Below, one piece after another: positions 17,718 through 62,012 of a stretch of DNA of 64,000 bases. Location: IMG/VR virus record IMGVR_UViG_3300028833_000002; one strand, written 5' to 3'. The DNA comes from a virus. Taxonomy: Duplodnaviria; Heunggongvirae; Uroviricota; Caudoviricetes. Numbering within the stretch: the first letter of the stretch is position 1; each line of letters starts with the position of its first letter. The notes beneath the pieces were generated by a model. That model ran no database searches and was not told where the DNA came from. It saw nothing but the letters and a program-made list of their open reading frames with translations. A program made the translations under genes and the position numbers.

Positions 17718-17746
17718 TTTACTTTTCTACAAAACTATGCTATAAT
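17718..17746 (+). promoter_or_regulatory. promoter family copy
   Basis: TTTACT-17-TATAAT (tatgcTATAAT). Confidence 0.5.
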
Positions 17747-17883
17747 AGATAATGTTCTTAGGAAATACTTTGAACATTATCTATTTTTTTCTACATTATC
17801 TTTGATGCTTGCTTTTTGCGAGTACAACTTACAGTAAAATCTCCCTAAGCGGCGATACTTCGCCAAATAAGGAGGAATTTTTT

Positions 17884-18792
17884 ATGAATAAGAAGAACTT
17901 AAACATGATGTGTGGCATCGTTATTGGCCTAGCGATGTGTTTTACAGTTGCAAGTTGCGGCTAGAACACAAAAGTAGACCTAGTAAACACAGATACTATT
18001 TATGCAGATGTCGCAGAAAGCACAGCAGAAACGACCATTGAAACAACTGTAATAACAACAGTTGCTACATCTAATTCCACAACAACTTCTGCCGCAATCA
18101 CCACAGCAGAAACAACAGTGGAAACAACTAATGCAGAAACAGAAGCTCCGGCAACAGAAGCTGAAGTAGTAATAGTGCCAGAAACAGAAGCACCAGCAGA
18201 ATATGTAGAACCAACACCGGAAACAGAAACTGAACCAGCACCAGTGGTTGAGCCAGTAGAAGAATACTTAGTTTATAAGCCAAGTACATATTACATCCAT
18301 CGTAGCACTTGCAGATGGAACAAAGATGACGCTTATCGTATAGACTCGGCTAATGGACTTACAGCAAGACTTTGTACTGAATGTTGCCCGGAATGTGATG
18401 GATTTGAAGAATACGTTCCGCCAGTGGAAGAAGCTCCAAGTTCTGATGGTTTAACATATTTTGGTTATTTCGGAAGAGTAACATATTACCCAGCAACAGC
18501 ATATTATGATGGTGTTTGCGGCGGTTCAGGTAGAACTCTTATGGGTTATGGTGATTATGGTAATGGCATAAGAGGTTCTGTAGCAAGCAGAACTTTATAT
18601 GAGACATATGGATATAATAGAAATGGTAGAACAACAGTTTATCTCGAATTTCCGGGGTATCCGGAGATGAATGGAACGTACTATTGTGATGATTGCTGTA
18701 GAGATTATGGTGTAATTGACGTTTTCGTATGGAGTGATTATAGCTGTCCATTCTATAATGCCGGTGTAATTACAGCAGACTGTTACATTTAA
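17884..18792 (+). CDS. lipoprotein with Thr/Glu/Pro linker and RlpA-like DPBB (lytic-transglycosylase-like) domain
   Basis: The signal peptide ends in the lipobox VASC. A TAG follows the Cys. The C-terminus reads GRVTYY...GGSG...VASRTL...NGRTTVYLEF. An AAGGAGG ribosome-binding site is present. Confidence 0.55.
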
Positions 18793-18913
18793 TTTTATAT
18801 CAATATCAAGTTTATTTTGTTAATGAACTTGTGTTAAGTTAATTGAATTGGCAACTCAATTGCGAAGGATAAGAAGATAAACACAAGGGAAGATTTTTAC
18901 TGTAAAAATGAAG

Positions 18914-18946
18914 GGATGTTCACAGAGATTGTGAGCATCCTTTTCT
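18914..18946 (+). terminator. rho-independent terminator
   Basis: 11-bp hairpin ggatgttcaca/tgtgagcatcc followed by TTTTCT. Confidence 0.6.
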
Positions 18947-18947
18947 A

Positions 18948-18976
18948 TTTACTTTTTTGAAAGCTTGTGTTATAAT
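18948..18976 (+). promoter_or_regulatory. promoter family copy
   Basis: TTTACT-17-TGTGTTATAAT, ahead of the helicase gene. Confidence 0.55.
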
Positions 18977-19005
18977 AAAAGAAAAAGAATTGGAGGCAGC
19001 AATAA

Positions 19006-20094
19006 ATGAATTTAAGTGAACCACAAAAGAAAATAGTAAAAGCACCTGAAAAGAACATTTTATGCATGGCTGGGGCGGGCTCGGGCAAGACCACCATTCT
19101 CACTCAACGTATCGAATATTTAGTTGAAACCGGTGTAGACCCAACAAAGATTGTGGCTTTTACCTTTACCAATGAAGCCGCAAACGAAATGCGTAGACGT
19201 TTATCAGAAAAGTGTAAAGACGTATTCGTTGGCACTATCCATGGTTATGCCGCGATAATTTGCGGCAGAGCCGGTATAGATGTTGCCGCACTTGTATTAA
19301 AGGAAAAGTTTGATGACATCATTACCAAGGCCTATGAAGCAGATATGACTTATTACTTACCAGTTGAACATCTGCTTTTAGATGAAGTGCAAGACACATC
19401 AGAAAAACAATACAACTTCGTTAAGAAAATCCCGGCAATAAATCGTTTCTATGCTGGAGATTTTAGACAGCAGATTTATGGCTTTAGACTCAAAGACCCA
19501 GACTTCATTTTCAATGAACTGGAACACACTACCTTTAAGACTTATCATCTTATTGATAACTACAGAAGTCCTCAGAACATCATTGATTTCGGTGAAAGAT
19601 TTATTTGTGATTTCATGGTTGACCACGGTTTGCCAAAGTCAAAGGCGGCATCAGGTAGAAAGTCTGCATACATTAATGAAATGGTAGGCTTTAATCAGAT
19701 ACTCGATTATCTTGCATATGATGTGGATAAGGATGACTATGTTAACTGGTCTGTTCTTTGCCGCACAAACATTGAGGTTGAATATGTTGAGGAAAAATTT
19801 AAGGAAAACGGTATTCCATGCTGCATAGTCAAGAGAGATAAAGACCATTACGAACAGGCACAGGAAGATATGTTAACTAACAAGGTTAAGATTATGACAC
19901 AGCATTCTTCAAAGGGTCTTACCCTTCCAAAGGTTGTTGCTATGGACGTAAGAGTTTATAACGACGAGGAACGTAGACTTGCTTATGTTGCTTCAACAAG
20001 AGCACAGGAAGAATTATACATATGTTCGCCGCCAAAAGGCATTAAAAATTGGGATAAGGAACGTAAAAATGCTGGGATGGTGAGTTTTGGATAA
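19006..20094 (+). CDS. UvrD/PcrA-family SF1 helicase (compact)
   Basis: Motif I is AGAGSGKT. FTNEAANEM and VASTRAQEELYI are also present. Confidence 0.65.
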   Translation: MNLSEPQKKIVKAPEKNILCMAGAGSGKTTILTQRIEYLVETGVDPTKIVAFTFTNEAANEMRRRLSEKCKDVFVGTIHGYAAIICGRAGIDVAALVLKEKFDDIITKAYEADMTYYLPVEHLLLDEVQDTSEKQYNFVKKIPAINRFYAGDFRQQIYGFRLKDPDFIFNELEHTTFKTYHLIDNYRSPQNIIDFGERFICDFMVDHGLPKSKAASGRKSAYINEMVGFNQILDYLAYDVDKDDYVNWSVLCRTNIEVEYVEEKFKENGIPCCIVKRDKDHYEQAQEDMLTNKVKIMTQHSSKGLTLPKVVAMDVRVYNDEERRLAYVASTRAQEELYICSPPKGIKNWDKERKNAGMVSFG

Positions 20095-20618: not shown

Positions 20619-21171
20619 AACATATGTTATAGCAAACCTTAATCTGTTTGAGCATGGCGACGACACCAAAAGCAGTATCGTTGAGAACTGGAATAAAGTG
20701 GTAAGTGAAGATGATGTTGTTATTGTCATGGGGCCTGTAGGAGTTGGTAGCTTTGATGAAATGAAAAGTGTAATTAGCCAACTCAACGGTGAAAAACTTT
20801 TATATGATTATAGCATTAATCAAATGTTTACCAAAGAGGAATGGAAGGAAATCGGTTTTAAATATTGTTGGAATACACCAATGTTCAATGAATTACCAAA
20901 TGGTGAACTTGTGTTCTATGTACTAGCAGATGATTCTGTACATACTAGAGAAGATTGTGCTTTGTTCGTGACGAGTACAAATCATAATGTTGGTGACATT
21001 AAAAATTACTTTATTCCTGACGCAGATACTTTTGATTTTTGTCCTATAGATGCGGATGAGGTTCTAAATGTTTATAATAATATGATGGCTTTTGAAAGTA
21101 TGCCGGACACTGTTGAAACTCATAGTGAGGTTAAAGAGCTTGAATGGGGTGATGTTAAATGGGATTCGTAA
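20611..21171 (+). CDS. metallophosphoesterase-like protein with degenerate motifs
   Basis: The layout resembles the protein at 33623, but the metal ligands are altered (FEHGDD, IVMGPVG). Confidence 0.4.
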   Translation: MNKTYVIANLNLFEHGDDTKSSIVENWNKVVSEDDVVIVMGPVGVGSFDEMKSVISQLNGEKLLYDYSINQMFTKEEWKEIGFKYCWNTPMFNELPNGELVFYVLADDSVHTREDCALFVTSTNHNVGDIKNYFIPDADTFDFCPIDADEVLNVYNNMMAFESMPDTVETHSEVKELEWGDVKWDS

Positions 21172-22196
21172 TAGGTGCTATTTTCGCGGCAGCAATAATA
21201 CTTGGTTATTGTTTTTTCCATAACAAGTAGGTTAGGCATAAAGAGGCTATCATAGAAGCTGAATATGCACAGAGATTAATAGCCGAGATTTCCAACAATG
21301 TAGTTGCCGAAAAGAACAGACTAATTGATGAACAGGTTTCGGAACACCTAAGACAAGCAACTGAGGACGTTTCCAAATAGCTAAAAACGGTAACAGATGA
21401 ATTTGAAGCTCGTAAGACTCAAATCTATCAACAATTACAGTGTTTGGAAAATGAACTAAGCACAGCGATTGCTAACAAAAACGCTCGTATAAGGGAAATA
21501 ACTGAGGAACTTTCTCGACAATCAGCCGTGGTTGCAACTGAAAATACTGAGAAACTTAATGAGTTAAAGCAACAGTTTCTTGCCGCGAAAGAACAGATAC
21601 AATCAGAGTTCACAACATTCTCTGATGACATCGCGGCGAAAAAGGAAACTCTTCAAAAGGAGCTTGCGGCGCAAGAAGCAAAACAAAAAGAAATTATAGA
21701 GCAATACAAGCGTGCCGAACAAATCAGAGAACAAGAAAACTTCTATCGTATTGTTCTCACTGACAATGAAAAAGAAGATGTTTGTAAACTCCGTAAAATG
21801 GCAGAGGACTTACATGACCCTACCGCCCTTTATAAACTTATCTATGAACAATATTACAAGCGTCCATTCAATGAACTTATGGGGCGCATCATTGGTGAAG
21901 ATACTAGCGTAGGTATCTATAAAATCACCAACATAGAAAACGGCAAATGCTACATAGGTCAAACTAAACAAGAATTTAAAACACGTTTTCTTCAGCACGT
22001 AAAGAGAGGTCTTAAGGTAGAACCATCTACTAAAAATAAACTCTATGCGGCAATGTGGGAAGATGGTGTGGAAAACTTTACCTTTGAAATCTTGGCGCAT
22101 TGTGAAGCAGAAGACCTTAATACTAAGGAAAAAGAATTTATAAACTTCTATAAAGCCAATGAGTGGGGATACAATTCCACTACCGGCGGCTCATAA
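21159..22196 (+). CDS. N-terminal TM helix, coiled coil and C-terminal GIY-YIG nuclease domain; 2 in-frame TAG
   Basis: ATG 21159 is in frame with track ORF 21444. GIYKITNIENGKCYIGQT, R and H are present. A TM helix lies at the N-terminus. Confidence 0.55.
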
Positions 22197-22933: not shown

Positions 22934-22966
22934 GGAGGAATTACCTATGTGATTCCTCCTTTTCTC
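22934..22966 (+). terminator. rho-independent terminator
   Basis: Hairpin ggaggaat/attcctcc followed by TTTTCTCTTT. Confidence 0.6.
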
Positions 22967-22995
22967 TTTACTTTTTAGAAATTTTATGTTATAAT
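22967..22995 (+). promoter_or_regulatory. promoter family copy
   Basis: TTTACT-17-TATGTTATAAT, ahead of gene 23029. Confidence 0.55.
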
Positions 22996-23028
22996 ATAAA
23001 CATAAGATAAAGAAAGGAAGAAAGACGT

Positions 23029-24397: not shown

Positions 24398-24426
24398 TTT
24401 ACTTTTAGTGAGAGATATGTTATAAT
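24398..24426 (+). promoter_or_regulatory. promoter family copy driving the suppressor tRNA (about 290-nt leader)
   Basis: TTTACT-17-TATGTTATAAT. Confidence 0.55.
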
Positions 24427-24713
24427 ATAAATATAGTAAAAAGCACGAGTCAGTCGTGTAACAGTTATATAGCGAAGGTTCAGACTTCAATAAGTAGGGC
24501 GTAAGCCGCGAAAACATTGGCTTCTGTTCAAAAAAGAGTCGCTGGTTGTACATACAAGATATGTACATGTAAGGGAAGAAGATGTTGGGTGCGCAGAGCA
24601 TGGGATACCTTCTCAACATCCAGACCTACTACAAGCTCTGTTTAGGCTGTCACTATCTTGCCCATGTGATAGCCGGTCGAAGGGATTCCGATGGCAATAG
24701 GAATTCCATATGC

Positions 24714-25682: not shown

Positions 25683-25698
25683 TTTCCATAAAATACCA

Positions 25699-25736
25699 AA
25701 AGTGTCAGTGTTTATAAAGCATTGACACTTTTTTTA
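25699..25736 (+). terminator. rho-independent terminator (overlaps the -35 of the next promoter)
   Basis: Hairpin aaagtgtca/tgacacttt followed by TTTTTTT. Confidence 0.55.
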
Positions 25737-25750
25737 ATTTGTGATATAAT
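25723..25750 (+). promoter_or_regulatory. promoter family copy
   Basis: TTGACA-16-TGTGATATAAT followed by TTATAGAAAGTTAAGAAAGGAG. Confidence 0.55.
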
Positions 25751-25781
25751 TATTATAGAAAGTTAAGAAAGGAGTAAGACA

Positions 25782-28534: not shown

Positions 28535-28545
28535 ACTGGTAGGTC

Positions 28546-28574
28546 TTTACTTTTATCTTAACTTGTGTTATAAT
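28546..28574 (+). promoter_or_regulatory. promoter family copy
   Basis: TTTACT-17-TGTGTTATAAT followed by ATATACAGAAAGTTAAGAGAGGAG. Confidence 0.6.
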
Positions 28575-28605
28575 ATATACAGAAAGTTAAGAGAGGAGAA
28601 AAGAA

Positions 28606-29923: not shown

Positions 29924-29952
29924 TTTACTTTCTTTTAAAATTATGTTATAAT
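29924..29952 (+). promoter_or_regulatory. promoter family copy
   Basis: TTTACT-17-TATGTTATAAT. Confidence 0.55.
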
Positions 29953-29984
29953 AATTATAGAAATTAAGAAAGGGAGAATGTCAA

Positions 29985-32902: not shown

Positions 32903-32931
32903 TTGACTTTTTCATTAAACTATGTTATAAT
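32903..32931 (+). promoter_or_regulatory. promoter family copy
   Basis: TTGACT-17-TATGTTATAAT followed by ATATATAGAAAATGAAAGAGAGG. Confidence 0.6.
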
Positions 32932-32961
32932 ATATATAGAAAATGAAAGAGAGGTGTGAAT

Positions 32962-35757: not shown

Positions 35758-35786
35758 TTTACAAAAACCTAATTTTATGATATAAT
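35758..35786 (+). promoter_or_regulatory. promoter family copy
   Basis: TTTACA-17-TATGATATAAT followed by ATATATAGAAAGTTAAGAGAAAGGA. Confidence 0.6.
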
Positions 35787-35819
35787 ATATATAGAAAGTT
35801 AAGAGAAAGGATGTTATTT

Positions 35820-37509: not shown

Positions 37510-37538
37510 TTGACTTTCTCTTAAAAATATGCTATAAT
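37510..37538 (+). promoter_or_regulatory. promoter family copy
   Basis: TGGTAGGTGTTGACT-17-TATGCTATAAT followed by the conserved leader. Confidence 0.6.
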
Positions 37539-37572
37539 ATATATAGAAAGTTAAGAGAAAGGACATCATAAC

Positions 37573-38515: not shown

Positions 38516-38544
38516 TTGACTTTTAGAGAAAACTGTGTTATAAT
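38516..38544 (+). promoter_or_regulatory. promoter family copy
   Basis: TGGTAGGTGTTGACT-17-TGTGTTATAAT followed by the leader. Confidence 0.6.
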
Positions 38545-38575
38545 ATATATAGAAAGTTAAGAGAGAGGTAAATAT

Positions 38576-39710: not shown

Positions 39711-39907
39711 AATTTTTAAAAGGAATAATTTTCGCGGCGAAAGTAGTGGGGGCATTAGCGGTAATAGCTATGGGATTGTTTGTATTATATATTACCTTTA
39801 TATTCTTAGGAATTTTATGGACCGAATGTGGTCCCGTTCCTACGATTCTTGCCGCGATTTACATAATTTCTTTTGTTGTTTTTATAAGCGATACGAACAA
39901 ATCTTGA
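39707..39907 (+). CDS. small membrane protein Confidence 0.4.
   Translation: MKFLKGIIFAAKVVGALAVIAMGLFVLYITFIFLGILWTECGPVPTILAAIYIISFVVFISDTNKS
39721..39731. repeat. exemplar TTCGCGGCGAA
   Basis: Perfect palindrome inside a CDS. Confidence 0.6.
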
Positions 39908-39929
39908 CTTTTTTAAAGTTGTGTTATAA
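39903..39929 (+). promoter_or_regulatory. promoter family copy (15-nt spacer)
   Basis: TTGACT-15-TGTGTTATAAT. Confidence 0.5.
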
Positions 39930-39965
39930 TTAATATATAATAAAAATTCTAAGGAGGAATTTCTA

Positions 39966-43299: not shown

Positions 43300-43328
43300 T
43301 TGACTTTTACTTTAAATTGTGTTATAAT
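43300..43328 (+). promoter_or_regulatory. promoter family copy
   Basis: TTGACT-17-TGTGTTATAAT followed by the leader. Confidence 0.6.
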
Positions 43329-43377
43329 ATATATAGAAAGTTAAGAGAAAGATAAAAACAGAAAGGACGTATCGCTT

Positions 43378-44142: not shown

Positions 44143-44163
44143 CTTGGAAAAATCTGGTAGGTG

Positions 44164-44192
44164 TTGACTTTTACTTTAGATTGTGTTATAAT
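44164..44192 (+). promoter_or_regulatory. promoter family copy
   Basis: CTGGTAGGTGTTGACT-17-TGTGTTATAAT followed by the leader. Confidence 0.6.
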
Positions 44193-44203
44193 ATATATAG
44201 AAA

Positions 44204-44410
44204 ATGAGAAAGGAAGTAAAAAATATGTTTATTATGAATAATGGCGACCCAAAGAAGAACGCGGCCTCATATCTTTTTTCTTGTAAGAATTGTGGATGTG
44301 AATGGATGGCAGAACGAAAAGAGGTTTCAATTACACCGCCTTGTTTACCATATGCGATTTATATGAAGTGTCCGAATTGTAGAAAGACGGTAGAAGCAAA
44401 GGAGAGATAA
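44204..44410 (+). CDS. zinc-ribbon protein
   Basis: CKNCGC...CPNCRK. Confidence 0.45.
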   Translation: MRKEVKNMFIMNNGDPKKNAASYLFSCKNCGCEWMAERKEVSITPPCLPYAIYMKCPNCRKTVEAKER

Positions 44411-45779: not shown

Positions 45780-45808
45780 TTTACAAAAACCTTAATTTAT
45801 GCTATAAT
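45780..45808 (+). promoter_or_regulatory. promoter family copy
   Basis: TTTACA-17-TATGCTATAAT followed by the leader. Confidence 0.55.
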
Positions 45809-45840
45809 ATATATAGAAAATCAGGAAGGAACTAAAAACT

Positions 45841-49635: not shown

Positions 49636-49664
49636 TTGACTTTTTCTTAATTTTATGATATAAT
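49636..49664 (+). promoter_or_regulatory. promoter family copy
   Basis: TTGACT-17-TATGATATAAT. The 20 nt upstream are identical to the copy at 54792. Confidence 0.6.
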
Positions 49665-49698
49665 ATATATAGAAAGTTAAGAGAAAGGACTTGAAAGT

Positions 49699-50843: not shown

Positions 50844-50872
50844 TTTACAAAATCTGAAATCTATGTTATAAT
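50844..50872 (+). promoter_or_regulatory. promoter family copy
   Basis: TTTACA-17-TATGTTATAAT. Confidence 0.55.
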
Positions 50873-50903
50873 AAATATAGAAAATAAAGAAAGGATGTTG
50901 TTT

Positions 50904-51452: not shown

Positions 51453-51481
51453 TTTACAAAAACAAAAAATTATGGTATAAT
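51453..51481 (+). promoter_or_regulatory. promoter family copy driving tRNA-Gln(UUG)
   Basis: TTTACA-17-TATGGTATAAT. Confidence 0.55.
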
Positions 51482-51518
51482 AGATATAGAAAGTGAGAGA
51501 GAAATCTCTCACAGATAC

Positions 51519-52048: not shown

Positions 52049-52077
52049 TTTACAAATTCTAAAAATTATGTTATAAT
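52049..52077 (+). promoter_or_regulatory. promoter family copy
   Basis: TTTACA-17-TATGTTATAAT. Confidence 0.55.
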
Positions 52078-52101
52078 AATTATAGAAAATGAGAAAGGAA
52101 C

Positions 52102-52284
52102 TTGATTATGACAAGATGGAATGTAGTTAGAATAAATCCTGAAACAAAGGAAAGAATTCCTCTTCCTGCTTCTTACTCTGATAAGAAATATGCTGAGGAT
52201 TTAGCTAGAGCATTTAATTATGAATGGAAGCATCCTGAAACTGGTTTAGTTTTTAAACTTGAAGTTGAGAGCCGTGAAGTTTAA
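52102..52284 (+). CDS. small protein Confidence 0.4.
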   Translation: MIMTRWNVVRINPETKERIPLPASYSDKKYAEDLARAFNYEWKHPETGLVFKLEVESREV

Positions 52285-52287: not shown

Positions 52288-52316
52288 TTTACAAATTCTA
52301 AATTTTATGGTATAAT
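52288..52316 (+). promoter_or_regulatory. promoter family copy driving the 52.4-53.6 kb tRNA island
   Basis: TTTACA-17-TATGGTATAAT. Confidence 0.55.
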
Positions 52317-52440
52317 AAATATAGAAATTGAGAAAAGAGTATTTCAAAACATTTGTGAAACTTCGGTCCGATTCCGGGGTAGAGTCGCTCTAAGGGGCGA
52401 ACTGCTGGTTGCAATACCAAAGTCAATTTCTTAAATATAT

Positions 52441-53618: not shown

Positions 53619-53639
53619 CTTTATCTTGAAAACTTAATA

Positions 53640-54791: not shown

Positions 54792-54820
54792 TTGACTTTT
54801 ACTAAAAACTATGTTATAAT
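54792..54820 (+). promoter_or_regulatory. promoter family copy (ahead of the candidate R-M pair)
   Basis: TTGACT-17-TATGTTATAAT followed by the leader. Confidence 0.6.
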
Positions 54821-54851
54821 ATATATAGAAAATCAAGAAAGGAAGATTTTA

Positions 54852-56200: not shown

Positions 56201-56229
56201 AAATTGCTTTTCCAAAAAATTAGGAAAAC

Positions 56230-56258
56230 TTGACTTTTTCCAAAACTTATGTTATAAT
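56230..56258 (+). promoter_or_regulatory. promoter family copy
   Basis: TTGACT-17-TATGTTATAAT. The leader is identical to the 54792 copy. Confidence 0.6.
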
Positions 56259-56289
56259 ATATATAGAAAATCAAGAAAGGAAGATTTTA

Positions 56290-56885: not shown

Positions 56886-56914
56886 TTTACAAAATCTGAA
56901 ATTTATGTTATAAT
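56886..56914 (+). promoter_or_regulatory. promoter family copy
   Basis: TTTACA-17-TATGTTATAAT followed by the leader. Confidence 0.55.
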
Positions 56915-56945
56915 AAATATAGAAAGTTAAGAGAGGAGAAAACAA

Positions 56946-57149
56946 ATGGAACAGATTTCTTGGGAAAAGGCAAAAGAGATTGTTGATGAAGTTTACGGTA
57001 GTGGCTGGAGTTTGGTTGATGAAGATGAGGACGAATTCATTTGTCCGGAATGCGAAGACCCAATTCTCAGAGAAGATTATCCAATCTTAGATTTTTGCCG
57101 CGAAAATAAGACATTCATTTGTCCGGTTTGTGAAAATGAAATCGGTTAA
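56946..57149 (+). CDS. zinc-ribbon protein
   Basis: CPECEDP...CPVCENE. Confidence 0.45.
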   Translation: MEQISWEKAKEIVDEVYGSGWSLVDEDEDEFICPECEDPILREDYPILDFCRENKTFICPVCENEIG

Positions 57150-57159
57150 AGTGAAAGGC

Positions 57160-57188
57160 TTGACTTTTCTTGAAAGTTATGTTATAAT
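57160..57188 (+). promoter_or_regulatory. promoter family copy (first of a tandem pair)
   Basis: TTGACT-17-TATGTTATAAT. Confidence 0.55.
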
Positions 57189-57243
57189 TAATACATAATA
57201 AATACAAAGAAAGTTCAAATCGAAAACTTAAAAAGTGAAAGGC

Positions 57244-57272
57244 TTGACTTTCTTTGAAGATTATGTTATAAT
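57244..57272 (+). promoter_or_regulatory. promoter family copy (second of the tandem pair; ahead of the GIY-YIG gene)
   Basis: TTGACT-17-TATGTTATAAT. Confidence 0.55.
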
Positions 57273-57320
57273 TAATACATAATAAATACAAAACAATAAA
57301 TAAAAAGGAGCTGATTAGTT

Positions 57321-57950
57321 TTGGCATACATTTATAAAATCACAAATCTTATCAATGGCAAACTTTATATAGGTAAAACTTATAATTCTATTTAGGAAAG
57401 ATTTAAAGAGCATTGTAAAGATAGTCAAAGAGAACGATGCGAAAAAAGACCTTTATATAGTGCCATGAGAAAATATGGAACTGAAAATTTCACAATAGAA
57501 TTAATTGAGGAAACTTCTGTTCCAGAGGAGAGAGAAAAATATTGGATTGAATATTATGGTTCTTTCAAAAATGGTTATAATGCAACAATAGGCGGTGACG
57601 GGAAACCTTATATAGATAGAGATTTGGTAGTTGCCACTTATAAAGCTACATTAAATCAGGCAGAGGTTGCAAGAATTATGAATATTTCTACTGATAGCGT
57701 TAGTTTAATTCTTAAAGAAAAAGATGTAGACACAATTCCCTCTACTCTAGTTAGCCAAAGAGTTAATGGTAAAGTTGTAAATCAATATTCTCTTGATGGT
57801 GAATATATACAATCTTTTCCGTCAGCTTTAGCGGCGGCAAGAGCTTTAGGGAAAATAACTCCAACATCTAAAGGTGCTTCTTCTCAAATCTCTTCAGTTT
57901 GTAGAGGTAAAAGGAAAAGTGCTTATGGATACAAGTGGAGTTGGGGATAA
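57321..57950 (+). CDS. GIY-YIG homing-endonuclease-like protein; TTG start; 1 in-frame TAG
   Basis: YIYKITNLINGKLYIGKT...R...E...N are present. An AAGGAG ribosome-binding site lies 11 nt before TTG 57321. The gene is next to the tRNA island. Confidence 0.55.
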
Positions 57951-58092
57951 ATTATTCCCAACAAATATACGGGGCGCGGGACTGCAAGGGGTGGTCATCT
58001 GTCTTGCAAACAGAAAATCAGCTGGATTCGATTTCCAGGCGCTCCACTTATCATCCGGCTTGGTGAAGCCTTTGAATTCACCGTCCTTTCTT

Positions 58093-58164
58093 GGCCCTAT
58101 CGTCTAGCGGTTAGGACGTCAGCTTTTCACGCTGAAAACCCCAGTTCGATTCTGGGTAGGGTCA
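58093..58164 (+). tRNA. tRNA-Glu(UUC)
   Basis: The loop is ttTTCac. Confidence 0.7.
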
Positions 58165-58253
58165 TCAGATTGAAGCAGACTTGACGCTTACTTCGTAAGT
58201 TTTTGGGTACTTATACAGAAAAAATCAGCGTCATACATATTCTCAATCTTTAT

Positions 58254-58327
58254 GGGAGATTAGCTCAGCTGGTCAGAGCGGAACCCTGTTAAGGTTACGG
58301 TCATAGGTTCAAATCCTATATCTCCCG
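58254..58327 (+). tRNA. tRNA-Asn(GUU)
   Basis: The loop is ctGTTaa. Confidence 0.6.
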
Positions 58328-58331
58328 CTAT

Positions 58332-58402
58332 GGTCTATTCGTTCAACGGTAGGACGGCCGACTGTCTATCGGCAGATAGGGGTTCGATTCCCCTATGGAC
58401 CG
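58332..58402 (+). tRNA. tRNA-Asp(GUC)
   Basis: The loop is ctGTCta. Confidence 0.65.
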
Positions 58403-58493
58403 CTTAGTATCCGATTCGTTACTTGGACGTATTCCAAGCCAATTCCACAAATTACGACGGACGGCTCTACTAATCCATTAATTTAATTTATAT

Positions 58494-58564
58494 AGAGGAT
58501 GTGGTGTAATGGGAGCATACTTCATTTGGGGTGAAGGGGAGCAGTTCAAATCTGACATCTTCTA
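58494..58564 (+). tRNA. tRNA-Pro(UGG)
   Basis: The loop is ttTGGgg. Confidence 0.6.
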
Positions 58565-58570
58565 TCGTAT

Positions 58571-58639
58571 GAAGTGAGGGCAAATGGTAAGTCATTTAGT
58601 TACAAACTAAAAGGAGTGGGTTCGATTCCCATCGCTTCT
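58571..58639 (+). tRNA. atypical tRNA, anticodon ACA as folded (3-bp D-stem)
   Basis: The acceptor is gaagtga/tcgcttc. The loop is ttACAaa. Confidence 0.35.
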
Positions 58640-58642
58640 TTC

Positions 58643-58712
58643 GCGGCGAGGACAAATGGAAAGTCGCCGTCCTCATAAGTCGGAGATAGTAGGTTCGATT
58701 CCTACCGCCGCA
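58643..58712 (+). tRNA. tRNA-Met/fMet/Ile2 (CAU)
   Basis: The loop is ctCATaa. The 5' acceptor is formed by a copy of the TCGCGGCGA motif. Confidence 0.6.
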
Positions 58713-59014
58713 ATCGGTCGTCGCAGACCAAGTATTGGTTGCTATTAACCAATTTAGAGTGTAGATGGTGAATGGTCTTCTACATAGTCCATCATACTCT
58801 ACCAGACACAGTAGAAGAGTGGGTTGGAAGTTTTTTATCATGTTTCTTACAAAAATACATGGTTGACAGGTAGACCAAAGAGAGCCTACTGCTGAACGAG
58901 GAGAGAGGACGTTCCGGTTTTCCCACTAGCACCGTAACGTTAGTAGGGAGCGGAGCACTGCTCAGTGTGTGGTCGTTGGCGGGATGGAGTCATCGTGAAC
59001 AAGAATTCCATCCA

Positions 59015-59098
59015 AATTTATGGACAAGTGTGGAAAGCGGCGAAACCAGCGGACTGTAAATCCGTGACATTAGAAACACCGAAGGTTCGAGTCCTTCC
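59015..59098 (+). tRNA. tRNA-Tyr(GUA), type II
   Basis: The loop is ctGTAaa. Confidence 0.7.
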
Positions 59099-59342
59099 TT
59101 GTCCATTATGTTGAAGCAGTTTAATGAGATACTTCATAACAGAATTTAAGGATGACACATTCTATTATATTTGATTTCTCGTCAAGAAATCGCGGCTAGC
59201 CCAAGGCAGAAATTGGGCATTTACTTCTCATTAAGACATTCTCAACAGTTATTTTTTAAAATTGACAGAAGCAGTATGAACACTTACTTCATTAGACATG
59301 CAATCTGATTTTTAGTCGTGTTCGTTATATTCTCTGTCCTCA

Positions 59343-59413
59343 GCAGATGTAGTTTAATGGTAAAACCTCCGGCCTCCACCCGGAAAATATGAGTCCGATT
59401 CTCATTATCTGCT
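59343..59413 (+). tRNA. tRNA-Gly(UCC)
   Basis: The loop is ccTCCac. Confidence 0.65.
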
Positions 59414-59429
59414 TTAGCCGAAGCATTAG

Positions 59430-59507
59430 AAAACGGTTACTTCAATTGGTTTGAAAATTTCTTTGCTCAGAAATAGTGCGGTTCGAGTCCGTTTAACCCG
59501 TTTTCAC
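59430..59507 (+). ncRNA. tRNA-like element: perfect 7-bp acceptor (gaaaacg/cgttttc), T-arm-like GGTTCGAGTCC, non-canonical anticodon region (6-bp stem with 6-nt loop, or 8-nt loop)
   Basis: Hand fold. Confidence 0.3.
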
Positions 59508-59604
59508 CTTTCTCGGTCATTAGTTTTAAGTCGATGCAATATATACGGTTACTTCGACAGCCTGTTAACCTGTAATTGATACCTTCCGTATATAATTTTC
59601 TCGA

Positions 59605-59677
59605 CTATATGCTCCTGTAGCACAATTGGTAGTGCGCGAAACTTGTAATTTCGAGGTTCTCGGTCCGAGTCCGAGTG
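59605..59677 (+). tRNA. tRNA-Thr(UGU)
   Basis: The loop is ctTGTaa. Confidence 0.7.
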
Positions 59678-59685
59678 GGAGCTTA

Positions 59686-59726: not shown

Positions 59727-59755
59727 TTTACTTTTAAAAGAAATTATGTTATAAT
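59727..59755 (+). promoter_or_regulatory. promoter family copy (ahead of 59788 and Ro60)
   Basis: TTTACT-17-TATGTTATAAT followed by TTATAGAAAGTTAAGAGAGGAAAAG. Confidence 0.55.
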
Positions 59756-59787
59756 AATTATAGAAAGTTAAGAGAGGAAAAGTGAGT

Positions 59788-60098: not shown

Positions 60099-61754
60099 AT
60101 GAGCAGAATAGCAAGAGAAATTAAGGCAGAAAACAAGACAAAGAACACAGTAACAAACTTTATGGGCGGCAAGTCTTATACAATTAATCCGATTGATACG
60201 CTTAAATTAGTTGCGGCTTCATCAATCTTTGGTGAACCATCTTATTACCGTTCAAATGTAAGAGAAGCAAGATACCGTTGCGACAGACTGGTTGAAAACT
60301 TCTTTCCAGATTACATTGGTAAGACAACAACAGAAATCTTTGAAGATGTAATTGACAATGCTCTTTCTTATGATTTCGGCGCAACACTCGAATTTGCCGC
60401 AGAACTTAGAAATACCTATAATATGAGATTAAACCCACAGGTAATCATGGTTCGTGCCGCAATCCACGAGGGTAGAGCAAAGTTCACATCTGAAAACCCT
60501 GGTCTTTTCGCGGCAATAAATGATAAGGTAATGGCAAGAGCAGATGAACCAGCAACTCAGCTTGCATATTACATCTACAAGAACGGCGGCAAGTCAAAGC
60601 TCCCATCTGTATTAAAGAGAAGCATTGCTGATAAGCTCTCAAAGCTCGATGCATATGCGGTTAATAAGTATAAAAATGCTGAAATCGGCATGATAAATGC
60701 CGTTCGTCTTACACACGCAAATTCTCCAGTGTTAGATGACCTCTTAAATGACAATTTAAAGGTTTCAGATGCCGACGAAACATGGGAACAGAAGCGCTCA
60801 CGCGGCATGGGTTGGAAGGAAATCTTCAACTCAACAAACATGGGACACATGGCACTTTTAAGAAACCTTAGAAACGTTTTCGAGGAAGTTGAAGATATTA
60901 ACTTCGCTAAGAAATACCTTAAGAAGTTAAAGGATGGTGTACTTCGCGGCAAGCAGTTCCCATTCAGATACTACACAGCAATGGGTGTTATCGAAGCATC
61001 AAGAGTTAACTACAAGTCCCTTATCCTCGATACTCTTGAAGAATGTATGGATATTGCTATCGACAATATGCCAAAGTTAAAGGGTAAGACAATGTGCTTA
61101 TCTGATAACAGTGGTTCTGCTTGGGGCGGTATCACATCAGAGTATGGTAGCGTTGTAGTCGCCGAAATCGACAACCTTTCTTCTGTAATTGCTGGAAAGC
61201 TCTCAGACGAAGGTTATGTTGGTAAGTTCGGTGATAAGTTAAAGGTCTTCCCAGTTTCCAAGAGAAATGGATGCTTAATTCAGGCAAAGGAAATCAGCAG
61301 AGATAAGTCTCACGATGTTGGTGGTTCTACTGAAGGCGGCATTTGGGAGTTCCTTATCAACGCAATCAATGATGGTGAGTTCTACGATAATATCTTTATC
61401 TTCTCTGATATGCAGGCTGGACACGGTGGCCTTTACGGCACATCGGTTCAGATGAGCAGATACAGCAGCAAGTATGGTGTTGATGGTGGACGTTATATCG
61501 ACGTTTACAAGTTAGTTAAGGAATACCGTCAGAAGGTAAACCCAAAGGTCAATGTCTTCATGGTGCAGACTGCCGGCTACAACAACGTAATCTTACCAGA
61601 ATACTCTTACAGAACTGCTATCCTCTCCGGATGGACAGGTAAGGAAGTTAGCTTCGCGGCAGACTTCATTAAGAGATGGGATGATATTGAGGACAGACAG
61701 AACGCCCCAAGGCAGAAGTCAAGGTCAAATCTTCCACCAGTAAGATATAGATAA
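60099..61754 (+). CDS. rsr: Ro60/Rsr orthologue (TROVE domain plus vWA/MIDAS)
   Basis: The TROVE signature is GGKSYTINPIDTLKLVAASSIFGEPSYY. The C-terminal MIDAS is DNSGSAW. The size is about 551 aa. An AAGGAGG ribosome-binding site is present. Confidence 0.75.
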   Translation: MSRIAREIKAENKTKNTVTNFMGGKSYTINPIDTLKLVAASSIFGEPSYYRSNVREARYRCDRLVENFFPDYIGKTTTEIFEDVIDNALSYDFGATLEFAAELRNTYNMRLNPQVIMVRAAIHEGRAKFTSENPGLFAAINDKVMARADEPATQLAYYIYKNGGKSKLPSVLKRSIADKLSKLDAYAVNKYKNAEIGMINAVRLTHANSPVLDDLLNDNLKVSDADETWEQKRSRGMGWKEIFNSTNMGHMALLRNLRNVFEEVEDINFAKKYLKKLKDGVLRGKQFPFRYYTAMGVIEASRVNYKSLILDTLEECMDIAIDNMPKLKGKTMCLSDNSGSAWGGITSEYGSVVVAEIDNLSSVIAGKLSDEGYVGKFGDKLKVFPVSKRNGCLIQAKEISRDKSHDVGGSTEGGIWEFLINAINDGEFYDNIFIFSDMQAGHGGLYGTSVQMSRYSSKYGVDGGRYIDVYKLVKEYRQKVNPKVNVFMVQTAGYNNVILPEYSYRTAILSGWTGKEVSFAADFIKRWDDIEDRQNAPRQKSRSNLPPVRYR

Positions 61755-61761
61755 TATAAAG

Positions 61762-61791
61762 GGAGTAGGAAAAATTTTCCTACTCCTTTTT
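61762..61791 (+). terminator. rho-independent terminator after Ro60
   Basis: Hairpin ggagtagga/tcctactcc followed by TTTTT. Confidence 0.6.
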
Positions 61792-61828
61792 CATTTTTTC
61801 AAAAAAATTTTTTGAGATTCGACTAAAA

Positions 61829-61839
61829 TTCGCCGCGAA
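61829..61839. repeat. exemplar TTCGCCGCGAA (intergenic)
   Basis: Perfect palindrome. Confidence 0.6.
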
Positions 61840-61953
61840 AAGAGGGTGATTTTTCTCCTCTAGGTAATTTTTAAGATAAGGTTATTAAAAAAAGTTAGAG
61901 GATTTAGGAAGGCATAATTTGCCTTCTGAGATTGTCATACAAATGAATAGATT

Positions 61954-61964
61954 TTCGCGGCGAA
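61954..61964. repeat. exemplar TTCGCGGCGAA (intergenic, just upstream of a promoter)
   Basis: Perfect palindrome. Confidence 0.6.
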
Positions 61965-61983
61965 AGGAAATATCTGGTAGACA

Positions 61984-62012
61984 TTTACTTTTCTTAAAAA
62001 GTATGATATAAT
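61984..62012 (+). promoter_or_regulatory. promoter family copy
   Basis: CTGGTAGACATTTACT-17-TATGATATAAT followed by the leader. Confidence 0.6.

What the first reader, a model, noticed from the sequence alone, without database searches (positions are those of the whole stretch)
17718..62012. About 29 copies of one promoter plus a conserved 25-nt leader; strictly unidirectional transcription units
Nearly every early or middle gene cluster, and each tRNA island, is preceded by TTGACT or TTTACT, a 17-nt spacer and TGnTATAAT, which is a near-consensus sigmaA/sigma70 promoter with an extended -10.

This is followed by ATATATAGAAAGTTAAGAGAAAGGA, which contains the ribosome-binding site. The conserved leader extends well beyond what promoter function needs. 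It hints at a shared post-transcriptional control, such as an RNase, a translational regulator or a 5' structure.

One unit is tandemly duplicated as 84 bp x2 at 57139-57306. Two copies (49636 and 54792) share a further 20 identical upstream nucleotides.
Basis: seen in the sequence. Interest (0 to 1): 0.6.

Follow-up and report, generated by a model that had tools for sequence, protein, structure and literature searches.

The report
Repeated early promoter–leader cassettes of phage
A large uncultivated rumen phage carries 29 near-identical copies of a very strong host-type promoter fused to a short ribosome-binding leader; this is the usual way big lytic phages switch on their early genes, so it is a well-documented but ordinary feature.

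Summary
TTKACW-N14-TGNTATAAT occurs 28 times, all on the + strand (0.02 expected). A PWM finds exactly 29 units: 28 in 17.7-62 kb and one at 5403. The "25-nt leader" is overstated. It is exact in 3 copies and within 3 mismatches in 6. Twenty copies share only TATAAT-wwwTATAGAAA plus a purine-rich Shine-Dalgarno.

The units read as sigma-A (Gram-positive type, TRTG extended -10) early promoters, with an inferred start at the A of TAG and an unstructured 5'UTR of about 25 nt.

The leader is under strong constraint. It is 97% identical between orthologous sites, against 81-83% for the flanks. It also recurs in phages sharing only 30-60% protein identity, and a similar design occurs in Lactococcus phage 949.

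Its 5' block occurs only behind promoters. It persists before tRNAs, where it is folded into a 5' hairpin. I attribute it to start-site and promoter-escape constraints plus ribosome binding or 5'-end protection, not to a dedicated phage regulator.

Copies also act as recombination joints for gene cassettes, like T4 PeSLs but mostly without the stem-loop.

Side finds: TAG-to-Gln recoding of the late genes, a suppressor tRNA behind one of these promoters, and a ROOL RNA.

No transcript data exist; function is inferred.

The parts
5403..5455 (+). Promoter unit outside the reported range. -35 TTTACT, 17-nt spacer, TGTTATAAT, A-rich leader with AAAGGAGG, ATG at 5456. Preceded by a short hairpin plus T-run.
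   Evidence: (49 bits)
17718..17780 (+). Promoter unit, weakest full member at 26 bits. Non-TAGAAA leader. Followed by a long structured leader of about 130 nt before an AAGGAGG.
18948..19005 (+). Promoter unit with a non-TAGAAA leader. ATG at 19006 (helicase-like gene). Terminator-like hairpin 18910-18944 just upstream.
22967..23028 (+). Promoter unit with a CATAAGA-type leader. ATG at 23029 (polynucleotide-kinase-like gene). Hairpin 22934-22959 upstream.
24398..24460 (+). Promoter unit lying 281 nt upstream of the amber-suppressor tRNA(CTA) at 24714-24788. No ORF lies in between.
25722..25781 (+). Promoter unit (TTGACA) with a TAGAAAG leader. ATG at 25782. Hairpin 25698-25732 overlaps the -35.
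28546..28605 (+). Promoter unit with a cAGAAAGTTAAGAGAGGAG leader. ATG at 28606.
29924..29984 (+). Promoter unit with a TAGAAAT leader. ATG at 29985.
32903..32961 (+). Promoter unit with a TAGAAAATGAAAGAGAGG leader. ATG at 32962. Terminator 32854-32876 upstream.
35758..35819 (+). Promoter unit carrying the exact 25-nt leader. ATG at 35820 (or 35811).
37510..37572 (+). Promoter unit carrying the exact 25-nt leader. ATG at 37573. The whole 104-bp unit is absent at this position in relative L001.
38516..38575 (+). Promoter unit whose leader has 2 mismatches to the 25-mer. ATG at 38576.
39904..39965 (+). Promoter unit with a 15-nt spacer (17 nt in relative L145). Leader TAATATATAATA...AAGGAGG. ATG at 39966. 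The leader is duplicated around a 728-bp insert in L145.
   Evidence: 17 bits
42606..42677 (+). Promoter unit before tRNA-Leu/His/Leu. The leader folds into a 5' hairpin, GAAAGAGA..TCTCTTTC (-11.8 kcal/mol, z -5.2).
43300..43377 (+). Promoter unit. The 5' block AGAAAGTTAAGAGAAAGA is kept, but a second downstream AGAAAGGAC serves as the SD. ATG at 43378. Terminator 43249-43271 upstream.
44164..44224 (+). Promoter unit with a TAGAAAATGAGAAAGGAAG leader. ATG at 44225.
45780..45840 (+). Promoter unit (TTTACA) with a TAGAAAATCAGGAAGGA leader. ATG at 45841.
49636..49698 (+). Promoter unit carrying the exact 25-nt leader. ATG at 49699. Shares 20 upstream nt with the unit at 54792.
50844..50903 (+). 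Promoter unit with a TAGAAAATAAAGAAAGGA leader. ATG at 50904 (or 50895).
51453..51518 (+). Promoter unit before tRNA-Gln. The leader AGAAAGUGAGAGAG pairs with UCUCUCAC in a 5' hairpin (-12.8 kcal/mol, z -3.6).
52049..52107 (+). Promoter unit before a 60-aa ORF. Left repeat of a cassette that relative L006 lacks.
52288..52439 (+). Promoter unit plus a 117-nt non-coding leader before tRNA-Trp and the tRNA/ROOL island. Right repeat of the same cassette.
54792..54851 (+). Promoter unit. Identical to the unit at 56230 from TGTTATAAT through the ATG. Left repeat flanking a two-gene cassette absent from relative L097.
56230..56289 (+). Promoter unit. Right repeat of the 54852-56289 cassette. ATG at 56290.
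56886..56945 (+). Promoter unit with a TAGAAAGTTAAGAGAGGAG leader. ATG at 56946.
57160..57215 (+). First copy of the tandem promoter pair (84-bp period). CATAATA-type leader. No gene lies before the second copy.
57244..57300 (+). Second copy of the tandem pair. Followed by a homing-endonuclease gene (57315/57465-57950) and then the tRNA island 57971-59683.
59727..59787 (+). Promoter unit with a TAGAAAGTTAAGAGAGGAAAAG leader. ATG at 59788.
61984..62058 (+). Promoter unit. The 5' block AGAAAGTTAAGAGAGAGA is kept, and a second AGAAAGGAC serves as the SD. ATG at 62059.

Best explanation
**What each unit is.** Each unit is a compact early-expression cassette that fills one intergenic gap.
- It starts right after the upstream stop codon with about 20 nt of upstream element.
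- Then come a -35 TT(G/T)AC(T/A), a 17-nt spacer ending in T-R-T-G, and TATAAT.
- Then come an A/T-only discriminator and an inferred start at the A of T-A-G.

**How it is used.** The host sigma-A RNA polymerase uses the unit without any phage factor, so the 44-kb standard-code region is transcribed immediately after infection. That region holds small orphan genes, RNA-repair and nucleotide enzymes, tRNA arrays and the amber-suppressor tRNA.

**The transcript.** It begins AGAAAG... and reaches an AUG after only about 25-28 nt.
- The first 10-14 nt, a pyrimidine-free purine run, are conserved because a near-consensus promoter is limited by escape and by start-site choice.
- As RNA, this block is an SD-like sequence at the very 5' end.
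- In mRNAs it stays single-stranded and, together with the AGAAAGGA Shine-Dalgarno, loads a 30S subunit that covers the whole leader. This gives high translation and protects the 5' end.
- In tRNA or non-coding transcripts the same block is instead paired with a custom downstream pyrimidine run, forming a 5' hairpin.

**A second consequence.** Because about 55-60 nt are nearly identical in many copies, the units also act as sites of homologous recombination that insert, delete and swap gene cassettes.

**Shown:** the sequence architecture, its conservation, the contrast in predicted folding, and the recombinant junctions.

**Inferred:** the sigma factor, the start site, early timing, promoter-escape and stability effects, and the host.
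For: **Motif statistics.** 28 matches against 0.02 expected, all on the + strand. PWM scores are bimodal, with 29 sites at 17-55 bits and nothing else above 2 bits on the + strand.

**Gram-positive signature.** TRTG precedes TATAAT in 28 of 29 units.

**Constraint on the leader.**
- The leader is 277/286 identical in orthologous pairs. Flanks are 81-83% identical and the -35 to -10 stretch is 87.6%. For sites not used to find the loci, the figure is 149/156.
- In 81 non-ascertained sites of related viral contigs, the bases after TATAAT read A-T-W-T-A-T-A-G-A-A, with T6 0.88, A7 0.89 and G8 0.72.
- Those contigs share only 30-60% protein identity with the window. For most of them the promoter unit is the only alignable DNA.

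**The 5' block is tied to the promoter.**
- GTTAAGAGA occurs 9 times, every time directly behind a promoter and never at an internal RBS.
- AGAAAGG is the SD of 13 of 22 promoter-proximal genes but only 4 of 82 internal genes, which use GGAGG or GAGG.
- The units at 43300 and 61984 keep the block yet use a second SD further downstream.

**Folding.**
- Coding leaders: mean MFE -1.8 kcal/mol, 5' block paired in 7% of cases.
- Non-coding leaders: mean MFE -6.5 kcal/mol, block paired in 43% of cases, with many different complementary partners.
- The differences give p = 1e-15 and 6e-9.

**Published work on initial transcribed sequences (PMC5961368).** The ITS can change promoter strength more than 10-fold. 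Purine content correlates with productive yield. YG steps near +6 slow escape. G at +2 favours fast escape in lacUV5.

**Same design in a cultured Gram-positive phage.** Lactococcus phage 949 has the same architecture.

**Recombinant junctions.**

**Match to coding.** The promoter field coincides with the standard-code region. Recoded TAG codons are concentrated in 1-17.7 kb.
Against: - No transcript 5' ends, no host and no expression timing are available. The sigma-A assignment and the +1 position rest on consensus alone.
- The leader is more conserved than the promoter spacer. A pure promoter-plus-SD account explains this only by adding the promoter-escape or 5'-protection arguments, which were not tested here.
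- The SD type differs from that of internal genes. This could equally reflect common descent of the cassettes or a specific binding factor.
- Related loci were found by exact match to the motif, so the prevalence figures are biased. I corrected for this only by using sites not used for retrieval.
- The 16S rRNA 3' end used for SD pairing is a generic Bacillota sequence, not the host's.
- Indel boundaries lie next to a promoter in about 8 of 17 events, against a baseline of about 28% of gene junctions. That enrichment is not significant.
Confidence: 0.62

Rival explanations
1. Concerted evolution only. The leader is uniform because the cassettes are paralogous copies that keep being homogenised and moved by recombination, as with PeSL-like mobile cassettes. 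Beyond a working promoter and any SD, the exact leader sequence has no function of its own.
For: - Three indels between the window and its relatives have promoter copies at both ends, with hybrid flanks.
- A 104-bp unit is present or absent as a block.
- There is a tandem promoter duplication.
- The units at 54792 and 56230 are identical over more than 40 nt.
- The SD type is specific to the cassettes, as expected from common descent.
Against: - Homogenisation within one genome does not explain the same word in phages that share only 30-60% protein identity, or the similar design in Lactococcus phage 949.
- Within orthologous pairs the spacer changes freely (87.6% over -35 to -10) while the leader does not (96.9%). 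This points to selection on the leader itself.
- Non-coding leaders have evolved many different complements to the block.
Confidence: 0.2
2. A phage-encoded post-transcriptional regulator recognises the shared leader to shut off or tune early expression. It would be a RegB-like nuclease cutting in the SD region, or a RegA-like translational repressor.
For: - The leader is more conserved than the promoter needs.
- The 5' block is exclusive to promoter-proximal transcripts.
- The window encodes many unannotated small early proteins and several RNA-handling enzymes.
Against: - There is no fixed 25-nt site. The middle of the leader varies in sequence and length.
- The same block heads tRNA transcripts, where it is base-paired.
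- The motif is shared by phages and mobile elements with little or no gene content in common, so a common dedicated factor is unlikely.
- GGAG, the RegB target, is mostly absent from the leaders.
- No regulator or nuclease family was detected in the proteins scanned.
Confidence: 0.1
3. The conserved stretch from -6 to about +15 is a DNA operator. A phage or host DNA-binding protein would sit over the start site to switch off early transcription at the early-to-late transition.
For: - Conservation is continuous across the start site.
- The block is kept whether the RNA is single- or double-stranded, which fits a DNA-level role.
- A subset of units also has a conserved G-rich element, TGGTAGG, just upstream of the -35.
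Against: - The sequence has no dyad or direct-repeat symmetry.
- The middle of the leader varies by indels.
- The design is shared across hosts and elements.
- No DNA-binding regulator was identified.
Confidence: 0.06
4. The units are promoters for a phage-encoded polymerase or sigma factor rather than for host sigma-A. The conservation from -10 to +6 and the TATAG start would resemble single-subunit polymerase promoters such as SP6.
For: There is a superficial resemblance between ...TATAGAA and the SP6 promoter end CTATAGAAG (from memory). Conservation is unusually sharp and class-like.
Against: - The -35, the exact 17-nt spacer, the TRTG motif and TATAAT are all present.
- The genes served use the standard code, consistent with expression before any phage product exists.
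- No polymerase or sigma gene was seen in the window.
Confidence: 0.02

Closest known systems
PeSL (promoter-early stem-loop) cassettes of T4-type phages (Arbiol et al. 2010, PMC2839356; Comeau et al. 2014, PMC4122927)
   Same: - Tens of repeated intergenic cassettes per genome.
- Each runs from the stop codon of the upstream gene, through an upstream element and a consensus host-sigma early promoter, to the SD and start codon of the next gene.
- They are concentrated before orphan genes in plastic regions.
- Recombination between copies creates insertions, deletions and replacements. Three such junctions were seen here.
   Different: - The defining stem-loop terminator is present at only 6 of 29 units.
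- The host type is Gram-positive, with a TRTG extended -10.
- The transcribed leader itself is conserved.
- Mini-circles were not tested.
Early promoters of coliphage T5 (PN25, P25, P26, P28 and others), whose transcribed region influences strength (Gentz & Bujard 1985 and Kammerer et al. 1986, recalled from memory; ITS effects reviewed in PMC5961368 and PMC12464699)
   Same: - A family of very strong host-sigma promoters in a large tRNA-rich lytic phage.
- Conservation extends upstream of the -35 and downstream of +1.
- The initial transcribed sequence is purine-rich and leads straight into an SD.
   Different: - Different host and different consensus; T5 has no TG extension as a rule.
- The downstream role in T5 was shown by experiment. 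Here it is inferred.
5' mRNA stabilisers of Bacillus: the SP82 early-RNA polypurine sequence (Hue et al. 1995) and STAB-SD (Agaisse & Lereclus 1996), both listed in PMC3997798; ribosome protection from RNase J1 (PMC5737220)
   Same: - An SD-like polypurine block lies close to the 5' end and need not be the SD of a start codon. At 43300 and 61984 a second SD is used.
- The alternative solution, a 5'-terminal hairpin, appears in the non-coding leaders.
   Different: No half-life data exist. The host 16S 3' end and its RNases are unknown. Membership is a functional analogy only.
Intergenic promoters of Lactococcus phage 949 and related large phages of Bacillota
   Same: The design is TTGACT-14-TGATATAAT-atatattataaAGTTAAGGAGaaacgtaaATG, repeated before clusters of small early genes and before tRNAs. 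Identity to the window unit is 79-85% over about 56 nt.
   Different: The SD is GGAG-centred. The TAG start context is less fixed. The phages are unrelated at the protein level. No promoter analysis of phage 949 turned up in the searchable library.
T4 RegB / RegA control of early mRNAs (recalled from memory)
   Same: A set of early mRNAs shares a sequence in the translation-initiation region that can be targeted to end early expression.
   Different: The RegB target GGAG is mostly absent from these leaders. No homologue was detected. The shared block also heads tRNA transcripts.

Membership tests
Housekeeping sigma-A/sigma-70 promoter, Gram-positive type | A -35 hexamer close to TTGACA | tested here: met
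   TTGACT, TTTACT, TTTACA or TTGACA in all 29 units
Housekeeping sigma-A/sigma-70 promoter, Gram-positive type | A 17 +/- 1 nt spacer and a -10 TATAAT | tested here: met
   The spacer is exactly 17 nt in 28 units and 15 nt in one. TATAAT is perfect in all
Housekeeping sigma-A/sigma-70 promoter, Gram-positive type | The -16 region TRTG (extended -10) | tested here: met
   T-[A/G]-T-G precedes nTATAAT in 28 of 29 units. The motif definition is recalled from Voskuil & Chambliss 1998.
Housekeeping sigma-A/sigma-70 promoter, Gram-positive type | Transcription starts 6-8 nt downstream and depends on the host holoenzyme | not testable with these tools
   No transcript data and no known host
PeSL cassette (T4-type phages) | A strong host-sigma early promoter with an AT-rich upstream region, bounded by the upstream stop codon and the downstream SD and start codon | tested here: met
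   The definition is taken from PMC2839356, section 13.
PeSL cassette (T4-type phages) | A stem-loop acting as terminator or attenuator inside or next to the promoter | tested here: not met
   Only 6 of 29 units have a terminator-like hairpin: 5403, 18948, 22967, 25722, 32903 and 43300
PeSL cassette (T4-type phages) | Recombination between copies produces cassette indels between related genomes | tested here: met
   - The single L006 promoter combines the upstream flank of 52049 with the downstream part of 52288.
- The L097 promoter combines the upstream flank of 54792 with the gene downstream of 56230.
- In L145 an insert is flanked by a duplicated leader.
- The overall enrichment of boundaries at promoters is not significant (about 8 of 17 against a 28% baseline).
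PeSL cassette (T4-type phages) | Excised mini-circles | not testable with these tools
   Needs PCR or read-level data
STAB-SD / polypurine 5' stabiliser | An SD-like purine block near the 5' end that is not necessarily coupled to a start codon | tested here: met
   AGAAAG lies at the inferred +1. The block is retained at 43300 and 61984 even though a separate SD is used there. It never occurs at internal RBSs.
STAB-SD / polypurine 5' stabiliser | Increases mRNA half-life through 30S binding | not testable with these tools
RegB-type nuclease target | GGAG within the SD of early mRNAs, together with a RegB homologue | tested here: not met
   GGAGG occurs in 3 of 22 leader SDs and AGGAG in 5 of 22. 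No nuclease family was found among the proteins scanned, although not every ORF was scanned.

The most novel reading that the evidence does not exclude
The word TATAAT-ATATAT-AGAAAG(T)..purines may be a shared early-expression signal of a very broad set of phages and integrative elements of gut and rumen Bacillota, not just a good promoter. It would be kept because a specific host or element factor reads the 5' end of these transcripts or the DNA across +1. In TAG-recoded phages it would define the host-code 'first wave', which includes the suppressor tRNA that unlocks the recoded late genes. The same cassettes would double as the recombination joints that shuffle early genes among these phages.
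Probability: 0.12. Interest if true: 0.65.

Novelty: new member of a known kind. Interest (0 to 1): 0.35.

Why it matters
- It gives a complete, sharply defined map of the early transcription units of an uncultivated rumen phage of about 180 kb, from a clade that recodes TAG.
- It shows that the host-readable part of the genome is exactly the part wired with host-type promoters. That part includes the suppressor tRNA, the tRNA arrays and a ROOL RNA.
- The cassettes are compact, portable promoter-plus-RBS modules. They could serve as expression parts for gut and rumen Bacillota, which are hard to engineer.
- The junction evidence extends promoter-mediated cassette shuffling, described so far for T4-type phages of Gram-negative hosts, to phages of Gram-positive-type hosts.
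- None of this overturns current understanding.

Tried and rejected
The spacer includes the TGn.
- TRF did not report the 84-bp duplication. The repeat finder did.
- Megablast of 10 kb and tblastn of a 722-aa protein against 50,697 phage records found nothing. The phage has no close cultured relative.
- A single-protein related-loci search returned only one close relative, so I obtained no unbiased sample of distant relatives. I used sites not involved in retrieval instead.
- Rfam found no known RNA family in the leaders or downstream of the bacterial-genome hits.
- A literature search for the motif string found nothing. Papers on recoded gut phages do not mention promoters. No promoter analysis of phage 949 was found.
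- PHROG and Pfam scans of ten first genes behind TAGAAA-class promoters gave no function, apart from one homing endonuclease. No candidate regulator emerged.
- The amino-acid identity of the suppressor tRNA could not be read from similarity to other tRNAs; the best match was 65%. Paralogue alignment pointed to Gln instead.
- I tested whether host housekeeping genes use the same word. The one isolate-genome locus I examined lies in a mobile element, so the question stays open.
- 46419 (TGATATAAT with no -35) was rejected as a member.

Full report

Yes for the promoter.
- TGNTATAAT occurs 31 times in the window, against 5.4 +/- 2.5 in shuffles. Thirty of these are on the + strand.
- Written correctly, TTKACW-N14-TGNTATAAT has 28 matches, all on the + strand, against 0.02 expected. 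The first begins at 17718 and the last -10 ends at 62012. One extra copy lies at 5403, outside the range.
- A PWM built from the copies and scanned on both strands gives a strictly bimodal result. There are 29 sites at 17-55 bits. The next + strand score is 2 bits. The - strand reaches at most 9.5 bits, all from AT-rich self-overlap at the same loci.
- The site at 39904-39930 is a real member with a 15-nt spacer; its counterpart in relative L145 has 17 nt.
- TGATATAAT at 46419 has no -35 and is not a member.

The leader claim is overstated.
- The 25-mer is exact three times and within three mismatches six times.
- What 20 copies share is TGNTATAAT-WWWTATAGAAA with at most one mismatch. A variable 4-8 nt follows (GTTAAGAG, ATCAAG, ATGAG or GTGAGAG), then a GAAAGGA-type Shine-Dalgarno.
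- The other nine copies carry a different start region, mostly ..CATAATA...

The remaining details hold.
- The tandem duplication is real: 57133-57208 and 57217-57292, 84-bp period, 86% identity.
- So are the 20 identical upstream bases of the units at 49636 and 54792.
- All units, all 27 tRNA genes and the one ROOL RNA are on the + strand.

**2. Anatomy**

Information content runs from about -55 to about +16 relative to the inferred start.
- The -35 is TTGACT, TTTACT, TTTACA or TTGACA.
- 28 of 29 units have T-[A/G]-T-G before nTATAAT. From established knowledge, this is the -16 signature of Gram-positive sigma-A promoters.
- The six bases after TATAAT are A/T only.
- The most invariant downstream letters are ATAG at +5 to +8 after the hexamer. 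This places a T(-1) A(+1) G(+2) start 7 nt after the -10. The placement is inferred.
- The typical 5'UTR is 25-28 nt, with AGAAAGGA lying 8-10 nt before the ATG (several start codons reassigned by eye).
- Only six units are preceded by terminator-like hairpins, so most units must be read through from upstream.
- The units lie on average 1.5 kb apart and fill the whole gap between a stop codon and the next start.

**3. Is the leader constrained?**

The exact 26-mer TATAATATATATAGAAAGTTAAGAGA occurs in 40 stretches of IMG/VR viral contigs, many of them 140-190 kb long.
- For most of these, the roughly 55-bp unit is the only DNA alignable to the window.
- Shared proteins are 30-60% identical.

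In the close relatives (79-90% DNA identity) I compared orthologous sites.
- The 26 nt after TATAAT are 277/286 identical (96.9%).
- The -35 to -10 stretch is 87.6% identical, and 300-bp coding flanks are 81-83%.
- Restricting the count to sites that were not used to retrieve the loci gives 149/156.

In 81 promoter-like sites of the viral loci that do not match the retrieval pattern, the bases after TATAAT read A-T-W-T-A-T-A-G-A-A, with T6 at 0.88, A7 at 0.89, G8 at 0.72 and A9 at 0.86. The leader is therefore under purifying selection across a wide clade, and more strongly so than the promoter spacer.

**4. What the leader is not**

It is not a 5' RNA structure in mRNAs.
- Four coding leaders fold no better than shuffles, with z-scores of -0.4 to +1.4.
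- Across 137 unique coding leaders of this class, from the window and all loci, the mean MFE of the first 45 nt is -1.8 kcal/mol. The 5' block is paired in 7% of them.

It is not simply the phage's usual RBS.
- GTTAAGAGA occurs nine times, always directly behind a promoter.
- AGAAAGG is the SD of 13 of 22 promoter-proximal genes but only 4 of 82 internal genes, which use GGAGG or GAGG.

It is not a fixed 25-nt site, because its middle varies in sequence and in length.

**5. What the leader is most likely doing**

Three observations separate the 5' block (+1 to about +14) from the SD proper.
- The units at 43300 and 61984, and their counterparts in relatives, keep AGAAAGTTAAGAGA but use a second AGAAAGGAC further down as the SD.
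- Units that drive tRNAs keep the block as well.
- In those non-coding leaders the block is paired with a tailor-made pyrimidine run. Examples are GAAAGAGA..TCTCTTTC at 42647-42672 (z -5.2) and GTGAGAGAG..TCTCTCAC at 51493-51512 (z -3.6).

Across 112 non-coding or long leaders, the mean MFE is -6.5 kcal/mol and the block is paired in 43%. The partners are many and different: GUUAAGAGAGCG/CGCUCUCUUA, AAAGUGAGAAA/UUUCUCACUUU, AAAGAGAGGG/CCCUCUCUUU. The difference from coding leaders has p = 1e-15 for MFE and 6e-9 for pairing.

The block is kept whether the RNA is single- or double-stranded, so a DNA-level or initiation-level role is the simplest common denominator.
- Near-consensus promoters are escape-limited.
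- Published work shows that the initial transcribed sequence can change strength more than 10-fold, that purine content correlates with productive yield, that YG steps near +6 slow escape, and that G at +2 can favour fast escape (PMC5961368).
- AGAAAG has no pyrimidine in +1 to +6.

At the RNA level the block is complementary to the extreme 3' end of a generic Bacillota 16S rRNA (my assumption; the host is unknown). It is thus an SD-like element at the 5' end. This is the arrangement known from the SP82 polypurine stabiliser and from STAB-SD (references listed in PMC3997798) and from ribosome protection against RNase J1 (PMC5737220). A 5' hairpin is the classical alternative for RNAs that are not translated. 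These functional steps are inferred, not shown.

**6. Recombination joints**

Comparison with close relatives shows cassette differences with promoter copies at both ends.
- Relative L006 has one promoter. Its upstream flank matches the window unit at 52049 and its downstream part matches the unit at 52288. The window has a 239-bp promoter-plus-60-aa-ORF cassette between the two.
- Relative L097 has one promoter. Its upstream flank matches the unit at 54792 and the gene after it matches the one after 56230. The window has a two-gene cassette between these two units, which are identical over more than 40 nt.
- L145 carries a 728-bp homing-endonuclease-like insert flanked by a duplicated copy of the 39922 leader.
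- L001 lacks the 104-bp unit at 37470-37572 and has one a gene earlier.

By my count about 8 of 17 indel events touch a promoter unit, against a baseline of about 28% of gene junctions. That enrichment is not significant. The hybrid junctions are nevertheless direct evidence of exchange between copies.

This is how PeSL cassettes of T4-type phages behave (PMC2839356, PMC4122927). The defining stem-loop, however, is present in only 6 of 29 units, so I do not file these as PeSLs.

**7. Wider distribution**

- The contigs come mostly from gut and rumen MAGs of many Bacillota families.
- Several are 130-190 kb contigs that look like binned phages.
- One is a 180,054-bp contig binned with a Eubacterium sp. 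from yak reticulum. It is the closest relative of the window. As a hint to the host this is weak.

Two of the hits were examined further.
- An isolate-genome hit (Colidextribacter, L117) lies before a PriCT-2 primase-like gene next to an SprT-like gene. That context is a mobile element.
- Another hit (L075) lies before a second ROOL-plus-tRNA array.

Among cultured phages, the unit aligns at 79-85% over about 56 nt to intergenic regions of Lactococcus phage 949 and other large phages of Bacillota. Phage 949 shows the same design, TTGACT-14-TGATATAAT-atatattataaAGTTAAGGAGaaacgtaaATG, before small early genes and tRNAs.

The design is therefore common to strong early promoters of low-GC Gram-positive phages and elements. 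This argues for constraints set by host polymerase and ribosome rather than by a factor private to this phage. I could not establish whether host housekeeping genes use it.

**8. Context**

- The window has no close relative among 50,697 phage records.
- The promoter field encodes the following:
  - two RNA ligases, a Thg1-like enzyme, a polynucleotide-kinase-like protein and a Ro-like protein;
  - a nucleotidase and an adenylosuccinate-synthetase-like protein;
  - homing endonucleases and many orphans.
- Region 1-17.7 kb has only one unit and is TAG-recoded (see "noticed in passing").
- The promoter field is thus the part of the genome that a naive host can both transcribe and translate. It includes the amber-suppressor tRNA, 281 nt behind the unit at 24398.
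- This fits the published model for recoded phages (bioRxiv 10.1101/2021.08.26.457843). Neither that paper nor the phAss-1 paper (PMC10607447) mentions promoters.

**9. Verdict**

This is a real, sharply defined family of 29 early promoter-leader cassettes.
- Its kind is known: repeated host-sigma early promoters of large lytic phages, with PeSL-like shuffling.
- The specific consensus, the conserved initial transcribed block with its two RNA fates, and the link to a TAG-recoded phage clade are new details.
- Every functional statement awaits 5'-end mapping and reporter tests.

Noticed in passing
window 1-17700 (ORFs 1763-5365, 7488-9146, 10717-14769, 14766-17708): The late or structural part of the window is TAG-recoded.
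- Reading TAG as sense raises the coverage by open frames of at least 80 aa from 0.873 to 0.998.
- It also fuses fragments into ORFs of 1200, 552, 1350 and 980 aa, containing 7, 14, 4 and 8 in-frame TAGs.
- Apparent TAG 'stops' account for 24 of 40 ORFs here, against 11 of 107 in the rest of the window.
- In conserved motifs of three paralogous proteins (NFWVIAQV, EIGQLWEN, ITQKKQ), TAG aligns with Gln. The code is therefore probably code 15.
   Followed up: partly
window 24714-24788: An amber-suppressor tRNA with anticodon CTA, which ARAGORN labels 'Pyl'. It lies 281 nt behind the promoter unit at 24398. The stretch between them has no ORF and is 95% identical in relative L011, more than the surrounding DNA, so it may hold an undescribed non-coding RNA.
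   Followed up: partly
window 53631-54219: A full-length ROOL RNA (RF03087, 285 bits) lies inside the tRNA island, between tRNA-Leu and tRNA-Ile. A second ROOL-plus-tRNA array, behind the same kind of promoter, occurs in a Faecalibacillus contig (L075 6402-6984).
   Followed up: partly
window 21159-22196 and 57315-57950; L145 2990-3760: Homing-endonuclease genes (GIY-YIG and HNH-like) sit inside the otherwise standard-code early region and carry in-frame TAG codons. The other early genes do not, with 17806-18792 a possible exception. This matches the published idea that recoding delays endonuclease expression.
   Followed up: partly
window 41466-42602: An adenylosuccinate-synthetase-like gene whose best PHROG match is phrog_1211, annotated as the PurZ-type enzyme of 2-aminoadenine (Z-base) genomes. 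Gene calls on other contigs give Pfam Adenylsucc_synt. Whether it is PurZ or an ordinary PurA was not tested.
   Followed up: no
window 23029-23991, 29106-29918, 38820-39710, 44413-45534, 60099-61754: A dense set of tRNA and RNA repair or maturation genes: a polynucleotide-kinase-like protein, a Thg1-like tRNA-His guanylyltransferase, two RNA ligases and a Ro/TROVE-like RNA-binding protein. They sit next to 27 tRNA genes.
   Followed up: no
window 35738-35757, 37490-37509, 38503-38515, 44144-44163, 61965-61983, 28527-28545: Six units have a G-containing element, (C)TGGAAAWAT(C)TGGTAGGYR, directly upstream of the -35, where an A/T-rich UP element would be expected. It is conserved in close relatives (L033, L120, L121, L144, L145). 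Other lineages have a different upstream word, for example TTCACARAAARTTTAC in L009. It may be a factor-binding site. This remains unexplained.
   Followed up: no
window 52323-52439: The 117-nt leader between the unit at 52288 and tRNA-Trp is 93.6% identical in L006, higher than its surroundings, and contains a T-arm-like GGUCCGAUUCCGG. It has no Rfam match. It could be a degenerate tRNA or a small RNA.
   Followed up: no
window 54320-54393 and 54662-54732: Rfam calls an extra tRNA at 54320-54393 that ARAGORN misses. ARAGORN calls an odd tRNA at 54662-54732 with a two-base anticodon loop assignment.
   Followed up: no
window 5403-6568: The only promoter unit inside the recoded late region precedes a 370-aa gene that has no internal TAG and no PHROG match. 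This would be a host-readable gene embedded among recoded ones.
   Followed up: no
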